A stretch of DNA of 64,000 nt from an uncultured Latescibacterota bacterium (GTDB lineage: Bacteria > Latescibacterota > UBA2968). The position numbers and the translations under genes are program-made. The DNA lies in contig OX638329.1 in NCBI GenBank assembly GCA_951812755.1, positions 5,355,563-5,419,562 on the forward strand, read 5' to 3'. Positions 5,214-61,119 of this stretch are shown here, piece by piece; within the stretch, counting starts at the first letter, position 1, and the number at the start of each line of letters is the position of its first letter. Under the pieces are notes generated by a model, which had not been told where the DNA came from, ran no database searches, and saw nothing but the letters and a program-made list of their open reading frames with translations.

Positions 5214-5283
5214 AGTGCAAGGTGGGATGACTTAGGGTGTATTGTATTGCTGGCGAGCAAGGACTTGATATAACTCAGTACTA

Positions 5284-5394
5284 TTTCAAATAAGTCTCGT
5301 GTCTAAACCCACTGGACTCCGGCTTCCGCCGGAGTGACGAACGACAGTTGTCATTGCGGCAGGGGGTTAGCCGCAATCCAGTCTATCGAAAAAA
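5284..5394 (+). repeat. Repeat family A, copy 1 (about 110 bp, structured, non-coding)
   Basis: About 90% identical to the reverse complement of 20713-20824. Contains two conserved hairpin stems (ctccggc/gccggag and ttgcggc/gccgcaa) whose loops differ between the two copies. Confidence 0.8.
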
Positions 5395-20712: not shown

Positions 20713-20824
20713 TTTTTTCTAATAGACTGGATTGCGGCTTAAAGCATGCCGCAATGACAACCGTCGTTCGTCACTCCGGCGCAGGCCGGAGTCCAGTGGA
20801 TTTAGACACGAAACTTATTTGAAA
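20713..20824 (-). repeat. Repeat family A, copy 2 (inverted relative to copy 1)
   Basis: Reverse complement matches 5284-5394. Both stems are conserved while the loops differ (ttcc vs gcag; agggggtta vs ttaaagcat). Ends 9 bp before the gntR start codon. Confidence 0.8.
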
Positions 20825-20832
20825 GACCACTC

Positions 20833-21228: not shown

Positions 21229-22108
21229 CCAGACATCTGTATTTGAAGCCACATCACTGACCAAAAAATTCGATGACATCATAGCTCTCAATTCCGTAAC
21301 ACTCTCTCTTGGGGCGCATCGCGTAATTGGATTGATCGGACGCAATGGCGGCGGCAAAACCACCTTAATCCAGCACATGATCGGCCTGTATTTGCCCACA
21401 GAGGGAACGTGTAAAACACTGGGACGCACATGCGATCAATTGGGGGCAAACGAACTTTCGCGCATAGGCGTGGTACACCAGGAAAATCGCTTTTTTGAAT
21501 GGATGACCGTCAAACAGCATCTGCACTACGTGTCTTCATTTTACGAGGTCTGGGACCGCGACCTGGAAGCGCATCTGCTGCGCGAACTCGAACTGGAAAC
21601 ATCTGCACGCGTGGGCAACCTGTCTTCGGGTAACATGCAAAAATTGGGAATCATTCTGGCAGTATGTCATCATCCCGAGTTATTGATCTTAGATGAGCCG
21701 GTCAGTGGCCTGGACCCCATTGCCCGAGAGACACTGTTGAAATTTCTAATGACACTCCTGGCTGAAGACCAAAACACAATCGTGATCTCCTCGCACATTC
21801 TGCGAGACATCGAAAAAATAGTAGATTGGGTCGTATGCCTCGACGAAGGTGTGGTCAAAGCCGACAAGTCCCTGGACGATCTGCACCAGACCTACGCAAA
21901 GTGGACAGTCACAGGAAACAACCTGCCCCAGCAATTTTCCGAACCTTATATCCTGTCGCAAACAGTGAACGGAGTACAGGCACAATTGATCGTCAACCAG
22001 ACACTGGGCAATGCAGATCAATTCAAACGGACTTATCAAGCTGATATCACCAGTCAGTCTCTGAACCTCGACCAGCTATTTCCCATCCTGATTCGGGAGG
22101 GTGCGTAA
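21215..22108 (+). CDS. ABC transporter ATP-binding protein
   Basis: 297 aa. Walker A GRNGGGKTT, signature LSSGNMQK and Walker B LLILDEP. Confidence 0.9.
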   Translation: MMAHDQTSVFEATSLTKKFDDIIALNSVTLSLGAHRVIGLIGRNGGGKTTLIQHMIGLYLPTEGTCKTLGRTCDQLGANELSRIGVVHQENRFFEWMTVKQHLHYVSSFYEVWDRDLEAHLLRELELETSARVGNLSSGNMQKLGIILAVCHHPELLILDEPVSGLDPIARETLLKFLMTLLAEDQNTIVISSHILRDIEKIVDWVVCLDEGVVKADKSLDDLHQTYAKWTVTGNNLPQQFSEPYILSQTVNGVQAQLIVNQTLGNADQFKRTYQADITSQSLNLDQLFPILIREGA

Positions 22109-23592
22109 TGGGTATTCTTCCGTTCTTCACATTTTTGCGAAGCCCTGTTCACATTATCATCTCATTTTTTGCATGTCTGTTACTCGCCCATGTCTCGTGG
22201 ACTGCCGACAGAGATCAGTTCTTTGTGTTTCTCGTATTTCTGCTATTCTTCTTCAGTGGATTTTGGGGCTATGCTATCGGCGGTATTGTAGCGGAGAACC
22301 AGCATCGGATACTCACATGGACCCTGCCGTATTTTCGCAAGCGTCTGCTGATCTGGTCAATAATTGTCGGACTATTTTCCGTTGTAGTGTGGACGGCAGC
22401 GCTGACGTTTGCACCCCTCAATGCATCCTGGTCAACAATCTTGCTAATAAACTTGGGCTTTTATTGTTTCGGATTTGTCTGTACAGCAGGTTGGGATTTT
22501 GGTGTTTATCATTCTATGGCGATCCAGGCATGTCAGACCATATTAATGTTTTTATTTCTCATATTGGCTTTTTTTTGGCAAGAGGTGCTCGCCTTTGGAG
22601 AGCAACAAAAATTGGGGTTGGCTCTCATCGCATTCGCCATCACAATTGCGGCTTATTATTTTTCGTTTAAGCAGACAACTTTTCGGAGAAAGCCTCTTTA
22701 CTTGCTTTGGTCACTGCGCTCGGTTTTTTATCCTCATATCTGGGAGATGTGGAAAAGGGATACAATGAAGAGGCGAAGGCCGAGTACCAGGGTATGGCAT
22801 CTTGATCACATCGGTACAGGCATCTTCAATTGGCTACGTGCGGGCCGGTATGAAAATAGTGGTGGCAAGCTATGGCTATGGCTGCTCCCCGGGTTTAGTG
22901 CAGCATTGGCAATGGTGTTCTATTTCATTGGCATGATGACGAATGGATTCGGGATATTGGGTCGGTCTCCTTACGATTTTGAGACCGTATTGAAAACGAT
23001 TTATCACATGACCTTTTATTTCGACCAGTTGGACTCTAAAATCGCCATCAATATATCTCTTTCAGCGTTTTTCGGCCTTTGGGCGTATGTGACGTATATT
23101 TGGAGTCATCCTTTTTTCTTAAAAAAAGGGTATGTGTATCCGCTTTCTCGCACCCAGCGGATGTGGATTTGGTATTGTGGTTTTCTGGTGCAAAATATTT
23201 CTTTTTTTGCAACATCTATTCTGGTGTTGGGTGTTCTGGGCATCCTGGCGGGAGCGAAGATCGGATTTGTGTCTGAAGGGAATATTTCCTTGAGAATACT
23301 TTGTGTCTTTGGGTGGGCAGTGGTTCTTTGGCCGATGTTTCAGTGGCTACAAGTCAAATATCACCTATATGAATTTCCAAGAACGCGGCGACAAATATGG
23401 GGGATGGCTTTTCTGTTCTTGATCATGATTTTGGCTTGTGGAATCGCTGGTTTTGCTGCCCTGATGCGTAATCTATACCCCGACCTATCACTGACCTTTG
23501 AAGTGCCGATCCTTTTTGTCTGTTTTATTCTCTTACAATGGTTCCTGTTAGCCCGGCTTAAACGGTATTACGCCACACAGGATCTGGTTTAG
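22108..23592 (+). CDS. Polytopic membrane protein (putative ABC-2-type permease partner of the upstream ATPase)
   Basis: 494 aa, at least 10 predicted TM segments, translationally coupled to the ATPase (the ATG overlaps its stop). About 70% identical to the paralog at 24813-26279. Confidence 0.6.
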   Translation: MGILPFFTFLRSPVHIIISFFACLLLAHVSWTADRDQFFVFLVFLLFFFSGFWGYAIGGIVAENQHRILTWTLPYFRKRLLIWSIIVGLFSVVVWTAALTFAPLNASWSTILLINLGFYCFGFVCTAGWDFGVYHSMAIQACQTILMFLFLILAFFWQEVLAFGEQQKLGLALIAFAITIAAYYFSFKQTTFRRKPLYLLWSLRSVFYPHIWEMWKRDTMKRRRPSTRVWHLDHIGTGIFNWLRAGRYENSGGKLWLWLLPGFSAALAMVFYFIGMMTNGFGILGRSPYDFETVLKTIYHMTFYFDQLDSKIAINISLSAFFGLWAYVTYIWSHPFFLKKGYVYPLSRTQRMWIWYCGFLVQNISFFATSILVLGVLGILAGAKIGFVSEGNISLRILCVFGWAVVLWPMFQWLQVKYHLYEFPRTRRQIWGMAFLFLIMILACGIAGFAALMRNLYPDLSLTFEVPILFVCFILLQWFLLARLKRYYATQDLV

Positions 23593-23600
23593 CAACCAAA

Positions 23601-23607
23601 TTAAGAA
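23601..23607. repeat. Target-site duplication TTAAGAA, left copy (transposon family B, copy 1)
   Basis: An identical 7-mer flanks the element on the right at 23855-23861. Confidence 0.7.
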
Positions 23608-23854
23608 CTGACGTTACGCATAGGTAGAATATAATGGGCCTGTCATTCTGAGCCTTTCGGCTACGCTCAAGATAAACTCCGCGCAGCGGAGTCGAAGGAG
23701 CGGGGTACAACTGGCCGGTGAACGAGCCTGAAAAGCGGCTCGTTGTACACCATCCTCAGGCTAGTTCATCTCTTACCAACACAGGTGGAACAGATGCTTC
23801 GGCTCCGTTTCACTCCGCTCAGCATGACAAAAACCCAAACCTGCGTAACATCAG
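23608..23854 (+). mobile_element. Miniature inverted-repeat transposable element (MITE-like), family B copy 1, 247 bp
   Basis: 13-bp terminal inverted repeats (CTGACGTTACGCA … TGCGTAACATCAG) flanked by a 7-bp direct repeat TTAAGAA. A second copy with different flanks lies at 59989-60211. It has internal hairpins and no ORF of meaningful size. Confidence 0.8.
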
Positions 23855-23871
23855 TTAAGAAGGAAAAAGAG

Positions 23872-24711
23872 ATGGCATATCCAAATCTGAAGCAGTCTAT
23901 TTGGCTGCTGGTATTATTGGTCCTTATTAGCGCTGGTTTGGGGATACCTGTTGCGATCCTGGGAACGATTATTGACCAGCCGTTGCACAAAAGTCCTTAT
24001 GCGCTCTGGCCATTGACACTGGTGAGTTTTGTTTTGGTCGTACACTATGTTTTGCGTCGAACCAATCGGACCTGGGCTTCGTGGTCTGATATCATGCCCA
24101 TAAAAGCCATTTCGTGGCAATTGCTACTGCCACTTGTGGTATCTATCCTTGGATTGTTGATCGTCTCTCTGGAATTGGGAAAAGTGATGATGTCTTTGGC
24201 CCCAACGCCCGAGGTAGTGAAAGATACACTCCGCGGGTTGGTCGGCAAAAAAACCTCTTATTGGTTGGCCTTTTACGGCGCGGTGATTCAAACACCTGTC
24301 ATAGAAGAGGCACTTTTTAGAGGTATTATTGTGGGTGGTTTGTTGGCGTATTGGTCAAAGTATAAGGCTGCTATTTGGTCGGCAATTTTGTTTGGCATAT
24401 ATCACCTGAACCCAGCGCAATTTCCCGTGGCCTTCATATTGGGGCTTGTATTCGCATGGTGGATTATTCAAACGGGATCTTTATTACCTTGTATCCTGGG
24501 ACACGCATTGAACAATTTTCTGGCTATTACCCTGGCACGATCGGGAATACCGGGCTTTAAAAATCCAAAAGCTCTGATCTTTCTGCCGTGGTGGGTGGTC
24601 GTGTGTGCCGTACTATTGGCCGCGATTGGGTTGTGGTGGTTCTATCAAGTAGCAAAGCGCGAAGAAACAGATCTGCTTAAAGCGGAAGTTGAACCCGAGA
24701 GACATTGTTGA
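23872..24711 (+). CDS. CPBP-family (CAAX protease/Abi-type) intramembrane metalloprotease
   Basis: EEALFRG, FGxxH and HALNN motifs. The true start is most likely ATG 23872 (MAYPNLK, SD aaggaaaaagag). The track ORF's 5' extension to 23743 lies inside the transposon. Confidence 0.8.
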   Translation: MAYPNLKQSIWLLVLLVLISAGLGIPVAILGTIIDQPLHKSPYALWPLTLVSFVLVVHYVLRRTNRTWASWSDIMPIKAISWQLLLPLVVSILGLLIVSLELGKVMMSLAPTPEVVKDTLRGLVGKKTSYWLAFYGAVIQTPVIEEALFRGIIVGGLLAYWSKYKAAIWSAILFGIYHLNPAQFPVAFILGLVFAWWIIQTGSLLPCILGHALNNFLAITLARSGIPGFKNPKALIFLPWWVVVCAVLLAAIGLWWFYQVAKREETDLLKAEVEPERHC

Positions 24712-24812
24712 AATTTCTAATGACACTTTTGGCTGAGGATGAAAACACAACCATGACATCATGCACTAAACCTCGACCAGCTATTCCCCATCCTGATACG
24801 GGAGGACATGTA
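24690..24812 (+). pseudogene. Remnant of a duplicated ABC ATPase gene (two segments homologous to 21727-21790 and 22049-22110, joined by an internal deletion)
   Basis: …ETLLKFLMTLLAED(E/Q)NT… followed by …LNLDQLFPILIREG… and then the permease ATG, mirroring the ATPase-permease junction at 22108. Confidence 0.75.
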
Positions 24813-26279
24813 ATGGGTATTCTTCCCTTTTTCACATTTTTGCGAAGCCCTGTTTACATTATCATCGCATTTTTTGCATATCTGTTGCTCGCTCACGTCT
24901 GGATGTCTTCCCAAGCAGATCGGATCTCTGTCTTCGTTTTGTTTTTCTTTATTGAATTTTGGGGCGGGACTATCGGCAGTATGGTAGGAGAGAACCAGTA
25001 TCGGATGCTCACATGGACCCTGCCACATTTTCGCAAGCGTCTGATGATGTGGTCGGCAATAGTCGGACTATTTTCCATTGTAGCCTGGACAGATGCGCTA
25101 ACTTATGCACCTCTCAATGCGTCCTGGTCAACGATTTTGCTGTTGAATCTGGGCCTCTATTGTATCGGATTTGCCTTTTCAGGAGGTTGGAGTTTTGGTA
25201 TCCAGCACCCCGGGTTGGCTTCTGTGTGCCGGGGCCTCATCGTGTTTCTGGGACTGGCATCAGCCTATTTTTGGCAAGAGGTGCTCGCTTTTGGAGAGCA
25301 ACAAAAGTTGGGGTTGGCTCTCATCGCATTCGCCATCGCAATTGGAACTTATCATTTCGCCTTTAACCAGACAACTTTTCGGAGGAAGCCATTCTCTTTG
25401 GTTCTTCCACTGCGCTTAACCCTTTTTCCCCAAACCCGGGAGTTTTGGGAAAGGAATGCAATGAACAGGCGAAAGCCGAGTACCAGAATATGGCATCTCG
25501 ATCACGTCGGTACAGGCATCGTCAATTGGCTGCGTGCCGGTCAGTATGAAAATTCTGGTCTGGGTGGGTGGAGATGGCCACTTTCCGCGTTTACTGCAGT
25601 ATCAGCAATGGTGTTTTTTTTTCTTGGCATGATAACGTCTATGTTCGGGTTGTCGGATCGATCTCCGTACGATTTTGAGACCGTCTTGAAAATGATTTAT
25701 CATATGATTTTTTATTTTAACCAGTTGGACTCCAAGGTCACCGGGGATATATTCGCTGCCGTATTTTTCGGCATTTGTATGTATATTTTTATTTCTCCTA
25801 TTTCACTTAAAAAAGGGTACGTCTATCCGCTTTCTCGCACCCAGCGGATGTGGATTCGGTATAGCAGTTTGCTGGTGCAAAATATTTCTTTTTTTGCAGC
25901 GTCTATTCTGATATTGGGGGTTCTGGGCATCCTGGCGGGGGCAAAGATCGGGTTTGTGTCTGAAGGGGATATTTCCCTGAGAATACTCTGTGTCCTGGGG
26001 TGGTGGGTCGTTCTTTTACCGCTATTGCAGTGGTTGCAAGTCAAATATGACCTGTATGATTTTCAAAGAACGCGGCAACAGGTATGGGGGATGGCTTGTC
26101 TGATCCTGATCCTGATTTTGTCTCTTGGATTCACTGGTTTTACCAGTCTGATGCGTGTCCGCTATCCCGATTTGATGCTGACCTATGAAGCGCCGATCCT
26201 TTTTCTCTCTTTTATTCTGTTGCAATGGTTTCTATTGAATCGGCTCAAACGGTATTATGCCACACAGGACCTGATTTAG
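24813..26279 (+). CDS. Polytopic membrane protein, paralog of 22108-23592
   Basis: 488 aa from ATG 24813. Colinear with the upstream permease at about 70% identity. The ORF-track extension to 24705 corresponds to the ATPase remnant. Confidence 0.6.
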   Translation: MGILPFFTFLRSPVYIIIAFFAYLLLAHVWMSSQADRISVFVLFFFIEFWGGTIGSMVGENQYRMLTWTLPHFRKRLMMWSAIVGLFSIVAWTDALTYAPLNASWSTILLLNLGLYCIGFAFSGGWSFGIQHPGLASVCRGLIVFLGLASAYFWQEVLAFGEQQKLGLALIAFAIAIGTYHFAFNQTTFRRKPFSLVLPLRLTLFPQTREFWERNAMNRRKPSTRIWHLDHVGTGIVNWLRAGQYENSGLGGWRWPLSAFTAVSAMVFFFLGMITSMFGLSDRSPYDFETVLKMIYHMIFYFNQLDSKVTGDIFAAVFFGICMYIFISPISLKKGYVYPLSRTQRMWIRYSSLLVQNISFFAASILILGVLGILAGAKIGFVSEGDISLRILCVLGWWVVLLPLLQWLQVKYDLYDFQRTRQQVWGMACLILILILSLGFTGFTSLMRVRYPDLMLTYEAPILFLSFILLQWFLLNRLKRYYATQDLI

Positions 26280-41048: not shown

Positions 41049-42014
41049 TCACGCATCCAACGCTTGCTCAAATGCCTCAAGGCTGGACACTTGTATCGCG
41101 GCACGGAGCAACTGCTTGAGACGTTGCAAATCGTCAATGACCGCAATGCGGGCAGAGAGCGGGTGGGCTTCACTCAGATCAAATCGAATCTCCAACACGT
41201 CGAGGATCGCTTCAATCGTGCTTCTTCTTTCGCCTTGTTCAATACCTTGCTCAATGCCTTGCCCAATACCTTGCTTCATGCCTTCCTCTCTGCCCTGCTC
41301 TCTGCCTTGCTCTCTGCCTTGCTCAATACCCAATTGCTTAATGTATTGTGCAAACGATGATTCACGCATAATTGCGTCCATGAGACCCTCCTGTAATAGA
41401 ATACGATTGATCAGTGTCGGATCATACTCTAATCCACCTAATATCATCAACTTGCCCAAAATGTCAACTTTTATTGATTCATCCACCGCCAGAGCATTCG
41501 TCGCGTCAACACAGTGATGCAACCACCCCTCAGAATCTATTCCAACAGGACGTTTCATCAACGGGACGAATGGAAACAAGCCCGAAGGTCCGCCATCAAT
41601 AATGTCCTGTCCCTCGATCTCACTCAGCCGAACCACTGTGTATTTTATCAAAACGCGATGGCCGGATATATCATGAATAAAGTACCCCGGATCGCGCCGA
41701 CCGGCATCGTGCCGCAAGTAGATCACACTGGAATAAATCGGCAAGTCGTGCTGCTCTATCGCACGTATAATATAGCCCGCCATGCGGAGCGGCATAGATG
41801 GATCGTCAGTCGTTTGAAACTCATGATGCACCAATGTCTCCTTGCCTGAGATATGGACGCGGATGAGGCTATCGGTATGTCGTGTATCAACCGTGTTTTG
41901 CTCTGTGTCGAGTATGTTGAGGACCTCTACATCGTCCTGTTCAAGTGTGAGGCGGATAAAGTCTTTGGGATAGGTCTGGATCAGATCTTTGGAGACAGAG
42001 TCATATTCGGCCAT
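41049..42014 (-). CDS. Rpn-family recombination-promoting nuclease/putative transposase (YhgA-like PD-(D/E)xK) with a C-terminal DUF4351 domain
   Basis: 321 aa. YhgA-like N-terminal nuclease region, a (EQGR)n / GIEQG low-complexity linker, and the conserved C-terminal domain …LDVLEIRFDL…LKQLLRAAIQVSSLEAFEQALDA. Confidence 0.8.
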   Translation of the reverse strand: MAEYDSVSKDLIQTYPKDFIRLTLEQDDVEVLNILDTEQNTVDTRHTDSLIRVHISGKETLVHHEFQTTDDPSMPLRMAGYIIRAIEQHDLPIYSSVIYLRHDAGRRDPGYFIHDISGHRVLIKYTVVRLSEIEGQDIIDGGPSGLFPFVPLMKRPVGIDSEGWLHHCVDATNALAVDESIKVDILGKLMILGGLEYDPTLINRILLQEGLMDAIMRESSFAQYIKQLGIEQGREQGREQGREEGMKQGIGQGIEQGIEQGERRSTIEAILDVLEIRFDLSEAHPLSARIAVIDDLQRLKQLLRAAIQVSSLEAFEQALDA

Positions 42015-42417
42015 GTAGGATGCCCTGGGTCTGATGAGTGAATTTTACATGCAACAGTCAGACCCTGAGCAAATATCAAGCCAACGCCACAGAAATTGAG
42101 CGATAAATTGTATGGGCAGAAATTCAAGAACCCTCATCATGCTTTTAATATGCTGTATTGCGCCCTTAGCTTGAATATAAGGATCGCCTTTGGAGGCACA
42201 TACAAACGGAATGCACCGGGATACAAAAGTGTACGTTTTGATCCATGAATGATGGGGTTCGTGAAAAATTTTTACATTTAAAAAAATAGTGGGCTACGCT
42301 GTATTCAATGTTTTTTTGAGATTGGCTGATGGCATAAACAAAAGCCCGATGGATAACCAGTCCACCGGGCTTATTCATATCGTTTGAGGGATGTGCATAA
42401 TTCCACATATAATCGCG

Positions 42418-42801
42418 TCACGCATCCAACGCTTGCTCAAATGCTTCAAGGCTGGACACCTGGATCGCCGCACGATGCAACTGCTTGAGCAGTTGCAAAT
42501 CTTCAATAGCTGCAATGCGAGCAGATAGGGGGTCTGATTCATCCAGATCAAATCGAATCTCCAACACATCCAGGAGGTCTTCAATAGCGCGTTCTCTACT
42601 TCCTTCCTCAATACCTTGTTGAGTCAAGGATTGGTAAAAGGATGACTCGCGGACGAGATCCATGACGCCCTCTTTGATGAGCGCTTTAGAAATGGTTTCA
42701 GCGTCGTAATTCAATCCGCTCAAGATCGCCATGCTTGCGAGATTATTGGCCTTAGCTAACCGAGCCGCATGGATGTGACGCTGTGCTTTCTCGTCAGGCA
42801 T
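42418..42801 (-). pseudogene. Standalone fragment encoding only the Rpn C-terminal (DUF4351) domain, duplicate 1
   Basis: 127-aa ORF at about 75% identity to the C-terminal 120 aa or so of the Rpn gene. The 3' flank (42376-42465) duplicates 41012-41100. Could be a functional small protein rather than a dead remnant. Confidence 0.6.
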
Positions 42802-42813
42802 TGTAAAACCCCC

Positions 42814-43146
42814 TTAATCCGTTTCATCTAATATTTGCTGAAATGCTTCGAGATTAGACACTTGGACCGCTGCGCGGTGCAACTGCTTGAGGCGTTGCAC
42901 ATCGTTGATAGTGGCAATGCGAGCAGATAGAGGATCTGATTCATCCAGATCAAATCGAATTTCTAATACGTCGAGAAGATTTTCAATAGCGCGTTTTCTA
43001 ATCCCTTGCTCAATGCCCTGTTGCTTAATGTATTGAGCAAACGATGACTCGCGCATAATAGCGTCCATAAGACCCTCCTGTGACACGATACGACTGATTG
43101 TGCCTGGCGCGTAATCCAACCCACTCAAGATCGCCAAACCGCCCAA
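42814..43146 (-). pseudogene. Standalone fragment encoding only the Rpn C-terminal (DUF4351) domain, duplicate 2
   Basis: 110-aa ORF colinear with the Rpn C-terminal domain. Lies in tandem with 42418-42801. Confidence 0.6.
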
Positions 43147-43222: not shown

Positions 43223-44332
43223 TCATCCATAAGTCCACCCGCAGTGAAATCCTTGCTGCTCTGCAATCGACATGAGAGGCTCCAGGGTTCTGCGATAGGC
43301 AAATCTCAATATTTCAAAATCCAGAGTGTGCTCGGGCTTTTCAATATGCAGATCTGTAATATAAGGCTCCACCTTCTTTTTCCATTCATTATTGCTAAAA
43401 ATATCTCGGGCGATAGACAGCGCGTTGCACTGGGTTTTAGCCAAGCAGTCAATATATTTTTCCGACGGGAGCCAGTCACGTTTAGAACTATTTGCCTGGG
43501 GATCAACGGGAATGAGATTCCACAACTGATTGTGCGCCACAAATTTCCAGGGCAAAAAGTGATCCAATGCATAATCGCTATTCAGATCTTTTCCCGTGTA
43601 AATACATTGGATATTTTTTTTGCTAATAACCTGTTTCCAAAACTTTCGCTGTACATCAGGATTCCCTCTCTGCGGGTCTGGAGGAAACAATTTTTGCGTC
43701 ACAGCAGGAATACTGGGATTGCGTCGCTGCATATAATCTGCCCAGTGCCACAGTGCCCAGCCCTCAATAATTGTCTGGTGTTGTTGCAAATAAGCAATCC
43801 AGTCTGGATGCAAAAAAATACACTTTCGGGCATCGTCAAAACGGTAAAGAGGGCGTCGTTTTCGAAAATGTTCAGCAGCAAGTTCGACAATTTTCTGATC
43901 TACTCCTTGCTCCGATCCGCTGGTCTCTGCGTCAAAAAACGGGCGCAAAATTCGCTTGGAGACATAACGCATCAATCCGTAATCCGACTTTTCGCGAGAA
44001 ACATCAACGTGTTTACGCAATTTTTTGAGTCCAGTTTTAGATAGAAAATTTTTATCATGGTCAAAATTTGGAATCCGTTCCCAAACGGAAGCAATTTTAT
44101 CCTGAATGCCAAATGACAGTTTGGAAAAGACATTTGGGTACCATGCAGTAACCAGCATCTCAATCTCTATATCTCTCAGCGAAATACCATCATCAATCTC
44201 GAAATCTCTGTCCTTTAGCAAAGTCAATAGAGAAAGAAAAAAGAGATACTTGTACGAAGTGGCCTTATTTCTAAACAATCTACTCAGTGCTGCAATATCA
44301 AGTTGATCTGAATGTGGTAATTGTTGAGTCAT
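43223..44332 (-). CDS. Uncharacterised protein with a C-terminal HNH-nuclease-like motif (possible defence-associated nuclease)
   Basis: 369 aa with a C-terminal …ALDHFLPWKF…HNQLWNLIPVDPQANSSKRD (H-N-N-type) motif. The N-terminal domain has no family I can name. Confidence 0.45.
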   Translation of the reverse strand: MTQQLPHSDQLDIAALSRLFRNKATSYKYLFFLSLLTLLKDRDFEIDDGISLRDIEIEMLVTAWYPNVFSKLSFGIQDKIASVWERIPNFDHDKNFLSKTGLKKLRKHVDVSREKSDYGLMRYVSKRILRPFFDAETSGSEQGVDQKIVELAAEHFRKRRPLYRFDDARKCIFLHPDWIAYLQQHQTIIEGWALWHWADYMQRRNPSIPAVTQKLFPPDPQRGNPDVQRKFWKQVISKKNIQCIYTGKDLNSDYALDHFLPWKFVAHNQLWNLIPVDPQANSSKRDWLPSEKYIDCLAKTQCNALSIARDIFSNNEWKKKVEPYITDLHIEKPEHTLDFEILRFAYRRTLEPLMSIAEQQGFHCGWTYG

Positions 44333-59088: not shown

Positions 59089-59973
59089 ATGTCAACCTTC
59101 ACAGTTGGCCTACTCAGCCCCGGAGACATGGGACATGTCGTCGGACAAGTGGCAATCGCCTCTGGCGCTCGGGTAATAACCTGCTTGAATGGCCGCAGTG
59201 AGCGCACGCGCAAGCTCGCAGAAATAGCGGGTATCGAAGACGTACCCACATATTCCGATCTCGTGCGCGAAGCCTCACTCGTAATATGCATTCTCGTACC
59301 CGCAGCAGCAGAATCGGTAGCCACTCGCGTGGCTGACGCCCTGAAAGAGACAGATGAACAAATTGTATATACCGACTGCAATGCAATAGCCCCGACAACA
59401 ACTGTGCACATAGGAAAAATAATCGAAACCGCGGGCAGTGTATTTGTCGATGCGGGTATTATCGGCGGACCGCCGCGCCAACCTGGGGGTACGCGGTTTT
59501 ACTGTTCGGGCCCAGACACATCGGGCTTTGAAAAATTGAACAATTACGGGCTGGACGTGCGAAAAGTCGGCGATGAGATCGGACAGGCATCGGGATTAAA
59601 AATGTGCTATGCCGCACAGACCAAAGGAACGACCGCGCTACAAACGGAACTGCTCATCGCCGCGCGGCGCATGGGCCTGTACGAAGGATTGATCGCGGAG
59701 TGGGAAATGAGTCAGAAAGACCGGTTGGCGGGTATGGAGCGGGGCTTGCCGGGAATGCCGACCAAAGCAAAGCGGTGGATAGGTGAAATGGAAGAAATTG
59801 CCAAAACCTTTGGCGATTTGGGACTCACGCCAAAAATATACGAAGGCGCCGCAGACATGTACCGACTCGTCAGCGAAACACCACTGGCAGACGAAGCACC
59901 TGAAACCCGAGACAAGAGCCGATCACTCGCGCAGGTCATCGATATATTTGCCGAGCAATCTAAAAGTAAATAG
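59089..59973 (+). CDS. NAD(P)-binding oxidoreductase (6-phosphogluconate-dehydrogenase-like NAD-binding domain, DUF1932-type)
   Basis: N-terminal Rossmann motif VGLLSPGDMGHVVG and a C-terminal helical domain. Start taken at MSTF; the track ORF starts at 59059. Confidence 0.65.
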   Translation: MSTFTVGLLSPGDMGHVVGQVAIASGARVITCLNGRSERTRKLAEIAGIEDVPTYSDLVREASLVICILVPAAAESVATRVADALKETDEQIVYTDCNAIAPTTTVHIGKIIETAGSVFVDAGIIGGPPRQPGGTRFYCSGPDTSGFEKLNNYGLDVRKVGDEIGQASGLKMCYAAQTKGTTALQTELLIAARRMGLYEGLIAEWEMSQKDRLAGMERGLPGMPTKAKRWIGEMEEIAKTFGDLGLTPKIYEGAADMYRLVSETPLADEAPETRDKSRSLAQVIDIFAEQSKSK

Positions 59974-59988
59974 ATTACAAGTTATTGA

Positions 59989-60211
59989 CTGATGTTACGC
60001 ATGTCTGGGGTTTTGTCATGCTGAGCGGAGTGAAACGGAGCCGAAGCATCTGTTCCACCTGTGTTGGTAGGAGATGAACTGGCCTGAGGATGGTGTACAA
60101 CGAGCCGCTTTTCAGGCTCGTTCACCGGCCAGTTGTACCCCGCTCCTTCGACTCCGCTGCGCTTCGCTCAGAATGACAGGCGCATTGTATTGTACCTATG
60201 CGTAACGTCAG
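59989..60211 (-). mobile_element. Miniature inverted-repeat transposable element, family B copy 2 (223 bp, inverted relative to copy 1)
   Basis: Terminal inverted repeats CTGATGTTACGCA … TGCGTAACGTCAG flanked by the 7-bp direct repeat TTATTGA (59982-59988 and 60212-60218). About 90% identical to 23608-23854 apart from a 26-bp indel or so. Confidence 0.8.
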
Positions 60212-60219
60212 TTATTGAT

Positions 60220-60474
60220 ATGGCGTATGAGATGACAGAACATGCGCGTGATAGTTTGCGTAAGCGTCCCAATATTCGTACAGAGTGGATTGAAAGCGTA
60301 CTTGACCATCCCGAGCGCGTGGACCCCGATAAACATGACCCAGAATTAGAACACCGATTAGGGCGAATTCGGGAATATGATGGCCGAGTATTGCGTGTGA
60401 TCGTAAAAAAAGATACATTTCCGTTAAAAATCATCACATGCTATTTTGATCGCAATATGCGGAGGCAATTATGA
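60220..60474 (+). CDS. DUF4258-family protein (putative toxin-like component)
   Basis: 85 aa from ATG 60220 (MAYEMTEHARDSLRKR…). The track ORF's 5' extension lies inside the transposon. Overlaps the downstream DUF2283 gene by 4 nt. Confidence 0.6.
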   Translation: MAYEMTEHARDSLRKRPNIRTEWIESVLDHPERVDPDKHDPELEHRLGRIREYDGRVLRVIVKKDTFPLKIITCYFDRNMRRQL

Positions 60475-60689
60475 AATTAAAAATAGATGAAGAAGCTGAT
60501 GCTCTTCACCTTCAACTGGTAAATATTCCTGTTGAGGAGTCAGAGGAAGTTGCGCCTGGTGTCATCATCGACTACGATGCATCTGAACAGGTCGTCGGTC
60601 TTGAAATTTTGTATCTCTCCAAAAGAGAACAACCGATCAATCTTATGGATTTTCAATTTGAGACACGACCCAAAAAGTTAGCACGTTAA
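60471..60689 (+). CDS. DUF2283-family protein (putative partner of the DUF4258 protein)
   Basis: 72 aa (MKLKIDEEADALHLQL…VGLEILY). The DUF4258/DUF2283 gene pair is a recurrent two-gene module. Confidence 0.6.
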   Translation: MKLKIDEEADALHLQLVNIPVEESEEVAPGVIIDYDASEQVVGLEILYLSKREQPINLMDFQFETRPKKLAR

Positions 60690-60901
60690 GGTATAACAGG
60701 CAGTTCATCACCATGACGCGACGCAGAAAGAATCCAGTCTTGAAGTGCTGCCGCAAGTTCCTGACGGCATTCTTCAAGTGTCTGTCCAAAAGCAATCGTA
60801 CCTGGACATTTGGGAATTTCGCCAGAGAATGAGCTATCATCCAACTCTTCATAGATGGCGTATGTTAATGCCGCATTGATGTAGTCTTGAACCATCCTCA
60901 T
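60686..60901 (-). CDS. HicB-like (UPF0150) antitoxin-fold protein, with no HicA partner adjacent
   Basis: C-terminal 70 aa or so: MRMVQDYINAALTYAIYEELDDSSFSGEIPKCPGTIAFGQTLEECRQELAAALQDWIL… The track ORF extends to 61066, but that extension is non-conserved. Confidence 0.6.
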   Translation of the reverse strand: MRMVQDYINAALTYAIYEELDDSSFSGEIPKCPGTIAFGQTLEECRQELAAALQDWILSASRHGDELPVIP

Positions 60902-61119
60902 CTCCTTTGAAGTGTCTGGTAAGTTTACGCGATTTGTGAAGCGATAGCAAGACAAATGCATAATAATTGTGAACACAAAAAAAATTCCCTCTCCTATTAA
61001 ATGGAAAAGGGGTTTATTTTTTATAAAGATATGCCCAATGTCAAATTGACTTTTCGATGGTGACAAGCTATATTACGCGGTCATAATAAGTACGTGAAAC
61101 TTTAGACCGGGGAGACCAA

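What the first reader, a model, noticed from the sequence alone, without database searches (positions are those of the whole stretch)
23601..23861. Non-autonomous transposon (MITE-like) with 13-bp terminal inverted repeats and 7-bp target-site duplications, two copies in this window
Copy 1 (23608-23854) and copy 2 (59989-60211, inverted) are about 90% identical. Both begin and end with CTGA(C/T)GTTACGCA / TGCGTAAC(A/G)TCAG inverted repeats. Each is flanked by its own perfect 7-bp direct repeat (TTAAGAA for copy 1, TTATTGA for copy 2). That is the signature of independent transposition events with 7-bp target duplication. Neither copy encodes a transposase, so an autonomous IS with the same ends should exist elsewhere in the genome. 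Both insertions are intergenic, immediately upstream of genes (the CPBP protease and the DUF4258 toxin-like gene). The ORF-track 5' extensions of those genes are artefacts of reading into the element. The element also carries internal hairpins (for example gaacgagcc-tgaaaagc-ggctcgtt).
Basis: seen in the sequence. Interest (0 to 1): 0.7.

Follow-up and report, generated by a model that had tools for sequence, protein, structure and literature searches.

The report
Small non-autonomous transposon, two copies
Two copies of a roughly 230-base mobile DNA element with no transposase gene sit between genes of an uncultured Latescibacterota bacterium; closely related genomes have the same sites unoccupied, so this is a real but ordinary miniature transposon (MITE).

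Summary
Copy 1 (23608-23854) and copy 2 (59989-60211, inverted) are 96% identical apart from a 24-nt indel. Each ends in CTGAYGTTACGCA inverted repeats and is flanked by its own perfect 7-bp duplication (TTAAGAA, TTATTGA). The decisive evidence is empty sites. Ten related contigs (91-98% identical flanks) carry the copy-2 site with a single TTATTGA and no element. Four related contigs lack copy 1, and one metagenome contig shares it. The family is abundant: 45 distinct small elements (96-247 bp) turned up in Latescibacterota genomes and metagenomes, with a few in other phyla. Of these, 24 have perfect 7-bp duplications, with a palindromic target consensus TTANTAA. The elements are built from hairpin modules whose stems co-vary. 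No transposase gene and no full-length partner IS was found in any sequence I could reach. The 7-bp duplication, the AT-rich target and the 5'-CT ends resemble the ISPepr1 subgroup of the IS4 family, but that is an untested lead. Verdict: a new member of a known kind, of modest interest.

The parts
23601..23607 (.). Target-site duplication of copy 1, left (TTAAGAA)
   Evidence: Related contigs L056-L059 have no element at this intergenic position.
23608..23854 (+). MITE copy 1 (247 nt), orientation A end to B end
   Evidence: The B end and its flank recur at the same site in metagenome contig L124.
23608..23620 (+). Terminal inverted repeat, A end (CTGACGTTACGCA)
23642..23697 (+). Hairpin module A: GTCATTCTGAG, then a loop that here carries the 24-nt extra segment, then CGAAG
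   Evidence: The same long loop variant is seen in L007 and L036 and, in the unpaired ends, in L001, L015 and L025.
23705..23766 (+). Central nested hairpin (AACTGGCC ... GGCTAGTT enclosing gaacgagcc-tgaaaagc-ggctcgtt). The outer stem also occurs in L003 and L033; most family members have no central hairpin.
23793..23828 (-). Hairpin module B (GTCATGCTGAG ... CGAAGCATC on the minus strand)
23842..23854 (-). Terminal inverted repeat, B end (CTGATGTTACGCA on the minus strand)
23855..23861 (.). Target-site duplication of copy 1, right (TTAAGAA). The CPBP ribosome-binding region and ATG (23872) follow intact.
23824..23851 (+). Outward-reading promoter-like site at the B end (ATGACA-16-TAACAT), pointing at the CPBP gene. 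Consensus match only.
   Evidence: The same site is in copy 2.
59982..59988 (.). Target-site duplication of copy 2, left (TTATTGA)
59989..60211 (-). MITE copy 2 (223 nt), inverted relative to copy 1 (B end at 59989, A end at 60211)
   Evidence: The site is empty in L051, L052, L100, L102-L106, L108 and L109.
59989..60001 (+). Terminal inverted repeat, B end of copy 2
60199..60211 (-). Terminal inverted repeat, A end of copy 2
60212..60218 (.). Target-site duplication of copy 2, right (TTATTGA). The DUF4258 ATG is at 60220.

Best explanation
Both features are copies of a non-autonomous cut-and-paste type transposable element (a MITE). It belongs to a family that is highly amplified in Latescibacterota.

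Anatomy. Each element has 13-bp terminal inverted repeats (CTGAYGTTACGCA). A second inverted block (TGTCATKCTGAGC) lies 12 nt (B end) or 20 nt (A end) further in. The interior is made of stem-loops.

Mechanism (inferred). A transposase supplied in trans binds the two ends and inserts the element at a 7-bp staggered cut. It prefers the AT-rich palindromic target TTANTAA. Repair of the stagger gives the 7-bp duplication.

What is shown. The ends, the duplications, the target consensus, many copies, occupied versus empty orthologous sites, and the absence of coding capacity.

What is inferred. The DDE-type chemistry and the identity of the transposase. The best lead is an IS4-family element of the ISPepr1 subgroup, because of the 7-8 bp duplication, the AT-rich target and the 5'-CT ends. 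I put that lead at about 0.25.

Local consequences. Both insertions sit in very short spacers inside operon-like gene rows (25-28 nt and 16 nt before insertion). They therefore place a strongly folding 223-247 nt sequence between co-oriented genes. Any effect on expression, including the outward promoter-like site facing the CPBP gene, is conjecture.
For: - Anatomy of the two copies.
- Exact empty site for copy 2 in L051 and L052 and in eight further related contigs, all reading TAGATTACAAGTTATTGATATGG with one TTATTGA.
- Copy 1 is absent from L056-L059 but present at the same site in L124.
There were 22 more loci in metagenomes.
- 45 distinct paired elements of 96-247 bp. 24 have perfect and 31 have at most 1-mismatch 7-bp duplications. 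Consensus is T-T-A-N-T-A-A, against 2% perfect under shuffled pairing.
- All members share one architecture with distinct A and B ends.
- No ORF longer than 50 aa inside.
- Strong self-folding, z about -6 on either strand.
- No Rfam family matches.
- ISPepr1 features are taken from PMC2266710.
Against: - No autonomous element with these ends was found. The window has only the four ends. No pair of ends more than 400 bp apart occurs in any locus fetched with the module-containing pattern. The one viral scan on the terminal repeat alone gave no pair of ends enclosing an ORF.
- Apart from that viral scan, the scans required the subterminal hairpin module. A partner IS that shares only the 13-bp ends would have been missed.
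- The terminal sequence matches only 6 of the 8 conserved positions of the published ISPepr1 end consensus.
- The promoter-like sites are sigma-70 consensus matches in a phylum whose promoters are uncharacterised.
Confidence: 0.9

Rival explanations
1. It is a REP/BIME-like or IS200/IS605-type palindromic element. In that case a HUH (Y1) transposase that recognises the hairpins would move it, not a transposase acting on terminal inverted repeats.
For: - The interior is made of conserved hairpin modules whose stems co-vary perfectly.
- The same module occurs without the terminal repeats in Hymenobacter plasmids and in an Armatimonadota chromosome.
Against: - By established knowledge, HUH-mobilised elements make no target duplication and have no terminal inverted repeats.
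- Here 24 of 45 copies have perfect 7-bp duplications of differing sequence, and the empty sites hold exactly one copy of the 7-mer.
- In Latescibacterota loci the modules are found almost only inside elements bounded by the 13-bp ends.
Confidence: 0.03
2. It is a structured non-coding RNA or regulatory cassette. On this reading the terminal repeats are just the base of a long stem, and it spreads by recombination or gene conversion rather than transposition.
For: - Very stable fold on both strands.
- Promoter-like hexamers are conserved in both copies.
- Stem covariation in the modules.
Against: - No Rfam match even at permissive thresholds.
- Copies lie in either orientation relative to neighbouring genes.
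- The precise gain of element plus a 7-bp duplication at unrelated sites is a transposition footprint.
- An RNA-level role could still be a secondary property of a MITE.
Confidence: 0.04
3. Each copy is the in-situ remnant of a full-length IS that lost its transposase gene by internal deletion at that locus. On this reading it is not a small element that itself transposed.
For: MITEs originate this way. The A end carries an inward promoter-like site of the kind found in the left end of an IS.
Against: - 45 distinct copies in many genomes share the same A module, linker and B module junction. That requires the short form itself to have spread.
- No longer intermediate was seen.
- The two window copies share the same internal junctions and the same rare central hairpin.
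Confidence: 0.03

Closest known systems
Bacterial MITEs in general (for example Correia elements of Neisseria, RUP of Streptococcus pneumoniae, Nezha of cyanobacteria). These examples are from my own knowledge; the class is reviewed in PMC10969869.
   Same: Small size (96-247 bp). Terminal inverted repeats. Fixed-length target duplication. No coding capacity. Many copies. Mostly intergenic. Strong self-complementarity. Possible promoter or structure effects on neighbouring genes.
   Different: The ends, the 7-bp duplication and the TTANTAA target differ from those families (Correia and RUP duplicate TA). The host is an uncultured phylum. The interior is assembled from interchangeable hairpin cassettes.
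IS4 family, ISPepr1 subgroup (De Palmenaer et al. 2008, PMC2266710)
   Same: Published hallmarks are 7-8 bp direct repeats, a preference for AT-rich targets and 5'-CT ends. The published end consensus is YT-AA-YTT---A. The element's CTGAYGTTACGCA matches 6 of its 8 conserved positions. This comparison rests.
   Different: No transposase is present or was found, so relatedness cannot be tested. Two conserved end positions do not match. ISPepr1 itself could not be retrieved for a direct end comparison.
MIC231, the mobile insertion cassettes mobilised in trans by the IS231A transposase (IS4 family) in Bacillus cereus. From my own knowledge, not checked here.
   Same: It is the precedent for short non-autonomous cassettes carrying IS4-family ends and moved in trans.
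   Different: MIC231 elements carry passenger genes and give 10-12 bp duplications. These elements are non-coding and give 7 bp.
REP/BIME elements and their RAYT transposases
   Same: Short conserved imperfect palindromes repeated through a genome. The hairpin modules inside this element look like such units, and some stand alone in other phyla.
   Different: REPs have no terminal inverted repeats and make no target duplication. The complete element here has both.

Membership tests
MITE (non-autonomous element with terminal inverted repeats) | Small size, well under the length of an IS, with no transposase ORF | tested here: met
   The copies are 247 and 223 nt, and the family range is 96-247 nt. 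The longest internal ORF is 50 aa.
MITE (non-autonomous element with terminal inverted repeats) | Terminal inverted repeats | tested here: met
   The 13-bp CTGAYGTTACGCA is at all four ends. It is conserved in 45 paired family members, allowing up to 2 mismatches.
MITE (non-autonomous element with terminal inverted repeats) | Target-site duplication of fixed length that differs in sequence between copies | tested here: met
   The duplication is 7 bp. 24 of 45 are perfect and 31 of 45 have at most 1 mismatch, against 2% perfect under shuffled pairing.
MITE (non-autonomous element with terminal inverted repeats) | Multiple dispersed copies | tested here: met
   The genome scan was cut off at 50 loci, with at least 17 in the single chromosome OX638317.1. 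22 further metagenome loci were found.
MITE (non-autonomous element with terminal inverted repeats) | Insertion polymorphism: an orthologous empty site holding one copy of the duplicated target | tested here: met
   Copy 2: 10 related contigs have a single TTATTGA and no element. Copy 1: absent in L056-L059 and present in L124.
MITE (non-autonomous element with terminal inverted repeats) | A cognate autonomous IS with matching ends that supplies the transposase | tested here: inconclusive
   None was found in the window or in any fetched locus. The whole genomes could not be searched, and apart from one viral scan on the terminal repeat alone the scans required the subterminal module.
IS4 family, ISPepr1 subgroup (as the parent) | Direct repeats of 7-8 bp | tested here: met
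   7 bp, compared with the table in PMC2266710.
IS4 family, ISPepr1 subgroup (as the parent) | Insertion preference for AT-rich sequence | tested here: met
   The target consensus is TTANTAA. The published preference is stated in the paper.
IS4 family, ISPepr1 subgroup (as the parent) | End consensus YT-AA-YTT---A with 5'-CT | tested here: inconclusive
   CTGAYGTTACGCA has the 5'-CT and matches 6 of the 8 conserved positions. Positions 5 and 9 differ (comparison by eye).
IS4 family, ISPepr1 subgroup (as the parent) | A DDE transposase with the Y-(2)-R-(3)-E-(6)-K motif encoded between the ends | not testable with these tools
   No full-length element was recovered. A regular-expression screen of ORFs in the window and the first 50 loci found only two unrelated enzymes.
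REP/BIME or IS200/IS605-type palindromic elements | No terminal inverted repeats and no target-site duplication | tested here: not met
   Both are present.
Any described RNA family (Rfam 15) | A covariance-model match at the gathering score | tested here: not met
   There were no matches in the window. Only noise-level hits appeared at E up to 10.

The most novel reading that the evidence does not exclude
The family could be a cross-phylum, modular kind of MITE with two unusual properties.
- Its body is assembled from REP-like hairpin cassettes. The cassette has a GTCA-TNNT-GAG box, a variable loop and a CGA-ANNA-TC box, and the stems show perfect compensatory covariation.
- The cassettes also exist free-standing in Bacteroidota and Armatimonadota.

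On this reading the hairpins would be functional parts, for example extra transposase-binding sites or RNA-level regulatory or stability modules delivered to operons. The mobilising transposase would be a lineage not yet catalogued, since no partner IS was seen next to any of the copies sampled, 45 of them complete pairs.
Probability: 0.15. Interest if true: 0.55.

Novelty: new member of a known kind. Interest (0 to 1): 0.3.

Why it matters
- It gives clean, sequence-level proof of recent transposition in Latescibacterota, a phylum known only from metagenomes. Occupied and empty alleles occur among strains that are 91-98% identical.
- It defines a repeat family that breaks short-read assemblies. 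Contig L124 ends inside the element.
- The family inflates ORF calls. Both neighbouring genes acquire false 5' extensions, and spurious small 'proteins' are read from the element.
- The family's ends and its TTANTAA target are a ready handle for finding the responsible transposase.
- The family can also serve for strain typing in these populations.
- Beyond that, it is a typical MITE.

Tried and rejected
- Rfam at gathering and permissive thresholds: nothing meaningful.
- Other ends or a full IS in the window: only the four ends.
- The Rpn-like 'putative transposase' gene at 41049-42014 as the partner.
  - Its L008 homologue has a truncated element end 36 bp past its stop.
  - Neither gene is bracketed by two ends.
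  - The protein scores below the TIGR01784 cut-off.
  - Rejected as coincidental neighbourhood.
- Recurrent ORFs across the first 50 loci: only housekeeping paralogue families, no transposase.
- A YREK-motif screen: two hits, both ordinary enzymes.
- Viral contigs:
  - No family copies.
  - 35 matches to the terminal repeat alone. Most are single matches, several of them lying in a sequence shared by related contigs. The one apparent pair I read (L072) lies in a uniform stretch with no element features. One is a related 216-bp element in L070 with CTCACGTTACGCA ends.
- Plasmid collection: only the bare hairpin module, in Hymenobacter.
- Fetching ISPepr1 from the Pelobacter propionicus plasmids pPRO1 and pPRO2 for an end comparison. 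It is not on them. ISPepr2 (IS1595-like) has unrelated GGAACTATCACC ends.
- A metagenome scan for the A-end spacer not followed by the module, aimed at a parent IS: no hits.
- Literature:
  - No paper contains the module sequences other than as unrelated primers.
  - No paper linking Latescibacterota with MITEs appeared among the top results of a loose search.
- Exact-protein look-ups for four window proteins failed. For the DUF1932 gene the reason was a start-codon choice: relatives use the ATG at 59089.

Full report
**What is in the sequence**

- Copy 1 is 23608-23854 (247 nt). It is flanked by TTAAGAA at 23601-23607 and 23855-23861.
- Copy 2 is 59989-60211 (223 nt) in the opposite orientation. 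It is flanked by TTATTGA at 59982-59988 and 60212-60218.
- All four ends read CTGA(C/T)GTTACGCA.
- A global alignment gives 215 matches, 8 mismatches and one 24-nt indel. That is 96.4% identity over aligned positions and 87% with the gap.
- The window holds no further copy. The four exact terminal matches are the only ones, and the repeat finder links only these two regions (pairs I1 and I3).
- No internal ORF exceeds 50 aa.

**The neighbouring genes**

- Copy 1 lies between an ABC-type permease-like gene (stop at 23592) and an Rce1/CPBP-type protease gene (ATG 23872).
- Copy 2 lies between a DUF1932/NAD-binding dehydrogenase gene (stop at 59973) and a DUF4258-DUF2283 gene pair (ATG 60220).
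- Homologues of the protease are 279 aa with full coverage. The 84-aa DUF4258 product occurs identically on other contigs.

**Empty sites**

This is the decisive result.
- An exact-protein look-up for DUF4258 returned two contigs of 5.8-5.9 Mb (L051, L052). Their flanks are 96-97% identical to the window.
- In both, the dehydrogenase stop is followed by ATTACAAGTTATTGAT and then the DUF4258 ATG. There is one TTATTGA and no element.
- The window differs by exactly the 223-nt element plus a second TTATTGA.
- A look-up for the adjacent DUF2283 protein gave ten more contexts, 91-98% identical. All eight that contain DUF4258 have the same intact site, and none has a terminal-repeat match.
- For copy 1, four contigs encoding a 95-96% identical protease (L056-L059) have a 28-nt spacer and no element. 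There the spacer sequence itself has diverged.
- Conversely, a JGI metagenome contig (L124) with 95% identical flanking sequence ends inside the B end of an element at exactly the copy-1 position.
- So both insertions are polymorphic in natural populations. Copy 2 appears specific to the window's strain, and copy 1 is shared with at least one other population.

**Organism**

- The identical DUF2283 protein and close DUF4258 relatives are named by NCBI from Candidatus Latescibacterota MAGs. Some older records say Gemmatimonadota.
- One of the empty-site contigs (L106) belongs to assembly GCA_022821275.1. Its contig accessions (JAJEDY01) are those of a Latescibacterota MAG that itself carries family copies.

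**The family**

- I scanned one genome per species for the end plus the subterminal block (CTGAYGTTACGCA, 8-30 nt, GTCATNCTGAG).
- 45 of the 50 rows were in Latescibacterota MAGs, at least 17 of them in the single chromosome OX638317.1.
- Single hits came from MAGs labelled Chitinophagaceae, Bacteroidetes and Chlorobiota, and from a complete Armatimonadota chromosome.
- JGI metagenomes gave 22 more loci. Viral contigs gave none.
- Pairing ends within 400 bp gives 45 non-identical elements of 96-247 nt, median about 164. The two window copies are the longest.
- 24 elements have perfect 7-bp flanking repeats and 31 have at most one mismatch. Shuffled pairing of the same flanks gives 2% perfect.
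- The duplicated 7-mers differ from copy to copy. They follow a palindromic consensus T-T-A-N-T-A-A, with positions 1, 3, 5 and 7 at 75-92%.
The duplications are not part of a longer conserved flank.

**Architecture**

Every member has two distinguishable ends.
- The A end is the terminal repeat, then a roughly 20-nt spacer, then TGTCATTCTGAG.
- The B end is the terminal repeat, then a roughly 12-nt spacer, then TGTCATGCTGAG.
- Each subterminal block is the 5' half of a hairpin module that closes with CGAAGAATC (A) or CGAAGCATC (B).
- The loops between the two halves vary widely. Copy 1's extra 24 nt is one recurrent loop variant, also seen in L007 and L036 and in the unpaired ends of L001, L015 and L025.
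- The window copies additionally carry a nested central hairpin (23705-23766). Its outer stem also occurs in L003 and L033.
- Across 43 distinct modules, the two variable stem positions are always complementary: TGCT/AGCA 19, TTCT/AGAA 17, TTTT/AAAA 5, TCCT/AGGA 2. The stem is therefore maintained by compensatory change.
- The whole element folds far better than shuffled controls on either strand, with z about -6. It matches no Rfam family.

**Mechanism**

- Terminal inverted repeats, a fixed 7-bp duplication, a weakly palindromic target and precise occupied/empty alleles are the footprint of a transposase making a 7-bp staggered cut. By established knowledge this is DDE-type.
- Because the elements are non-coding, the enzyme must act in trans.
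- I could not find it. There is no second pair of ends in the window. No pair of ends more than 400 bp apart occurs in any locus fetched with the module-containing pattern, and the viral matches to the terminal repeat alone gave no pair of ends enclosing an ORF. No transposase recurs among the first 50 loci.
- A metagenome scan designed to catch an A end not followed by the hairpin module found nothing.
- An Rpn-like gene (41049-42014) drew attention because its L008 homologue has a truncated element end just past its stop. Neither gene is bracketed by ends, so I treat this as neighbourhood only.

**Closest described relatives**

- The published survey of the IS4 family gives these hallmarks for its ISPepr1 subgroup: 7-8 bp direct repeats, AT-rich targets, 5'-CT ends and the end consensus YT-AA-YTT---A (PMC2266710).
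- The element meets the first three and matches 6 of the 8 conserved end positions.
- That makes an ISPepr1-like transposase the best lead, at about 0.25. It is not a finding.
- ISPepr1 itself could not be retrieved for a direct comparison.

**Possible local effects (conjecture)**

- Both copies carry the same two sigma-70-like sites.
  - One reads inward from the A end, with the -35 hexamer in the terminal repeat and TATAAT or TACAAT 16 nt on.
  - One reads outward through the B end (ATGACA-16-TAACAT).
- In copy 1 the outward site faces the protease gene 17 nt away, whose ribosome-binding region is intact.
- In copy 2 the outward site faces away from DUF4258, antisense to the dehydrogenase gene.
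- No terminator-like site lies within either element; the one site the scans reported (23891-23909) is inside the protease gene.
- Before insertion the two gene pairs were separated by only 25-28 and 16 nt. The elements therefore now sit inside probable operons.

**Verdict**

- This is a well-behaved MITE of a family that seems undescribed. The literature searches found nothing for it.
- It is abundant in an uncultured phylum. It is a new member of a known kind, of modest interest.
- The open points are the identity of the transposase and the role of the co-varying hairpin modules.

Noticed in passing
window 23642-23697, 23793-23828, 60015-60050, 60130-60177; loci L001-L050, L055, L110-L131: The hairpin module has a GTCA-TNNT-GAG box, a variable loop and a CGA-ANNA-TC box. 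In 43 distinct modules the two variable stem positions are always complementary, in four variants. The same module stands alone, without the terminal repeats, in Hymenobacter plasmids and in an Armatimonadota chromosome (L028). It may be a widespread REP-like unit in its own right.
   Followed up: partly
window 5277-5394 and 20714-20831: A second short repeat family is present as an inverted pair, 86% complementary. It has two hairpins (ACTCCGGC..GCCGGAGT and ATTGCGGC..GCCGCAAT) bracketed by ACTGGA/TCCAGT. Related copies occur in L040, L043, L021 and other Latescibacterota loci.
   Followed up: partly
L001, L002, L011, L015, L018, L023, L024, L039, L048, L050 (OX638317.1 and OZ242195.1); L110, L114, L126: This is a chimeric repeat. 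A copy of the element that lacks its A-end terminal repeat is nested in a different small element. That outer element has ends AGARRCTGTTTTAAAA and a 3-bp TNA duplication, which is IS5-like by my own knowledge. The chimera has itself multiplied to at least 10 copies.
   Followed up: partly
window 41049-43146, minus strand: There is a remote Rpn-family (PD-(D/E)XK 'putative transposase') gene of 321 aa. It scores 33.8 bits against TIGR01784, below the cut-off. Two tandem copies of its C-terminal third follow at 42418-42801 and 42814-43146. An HNH endonuclease gene lies next door at 43223-44332. The region is 87% identical to L008, where a truncated element end abuts the gene.
   Followed up: partly
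window 60686-61013, minus strand: A small HicB/UPF0150-like gene lies downstream of DUF2283. It is present in the window, L104 and L105 but absent from L051, L052 and L054. This is a second strain-variable insertion about 500 bp from copy 2.
   Followed up: partly
window 22054-23393 versus 24759-26080: The permease-like gene is duplicated in tandem (75-85% identical) on either side of the CPBP protease gene. A 63-nt remnant of the ABC ATPase 3' end lies at 24694-24756. The permease-protease-permease order is also present in L056 and L057, so it predates the insertion.
   Followed up: partly
L070 6456-6671 (IMG/VR contig): A 216-bp element has related ends (CTCACGTTACGCA) and a perfect TTACTTTGA flank repeat. 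That reads as 9 bp, or as 7 bp if the inverted repeat is taken one base longer. It is probably a sister family.
   Followed up: no
L101 and L107: In two related contigs the DUF4258 gene is missing altogether and DUF2283 follows the dehydrogenase gene directly. The toxin-like partner of this pair is therefore itself variable.
   Followed up: no
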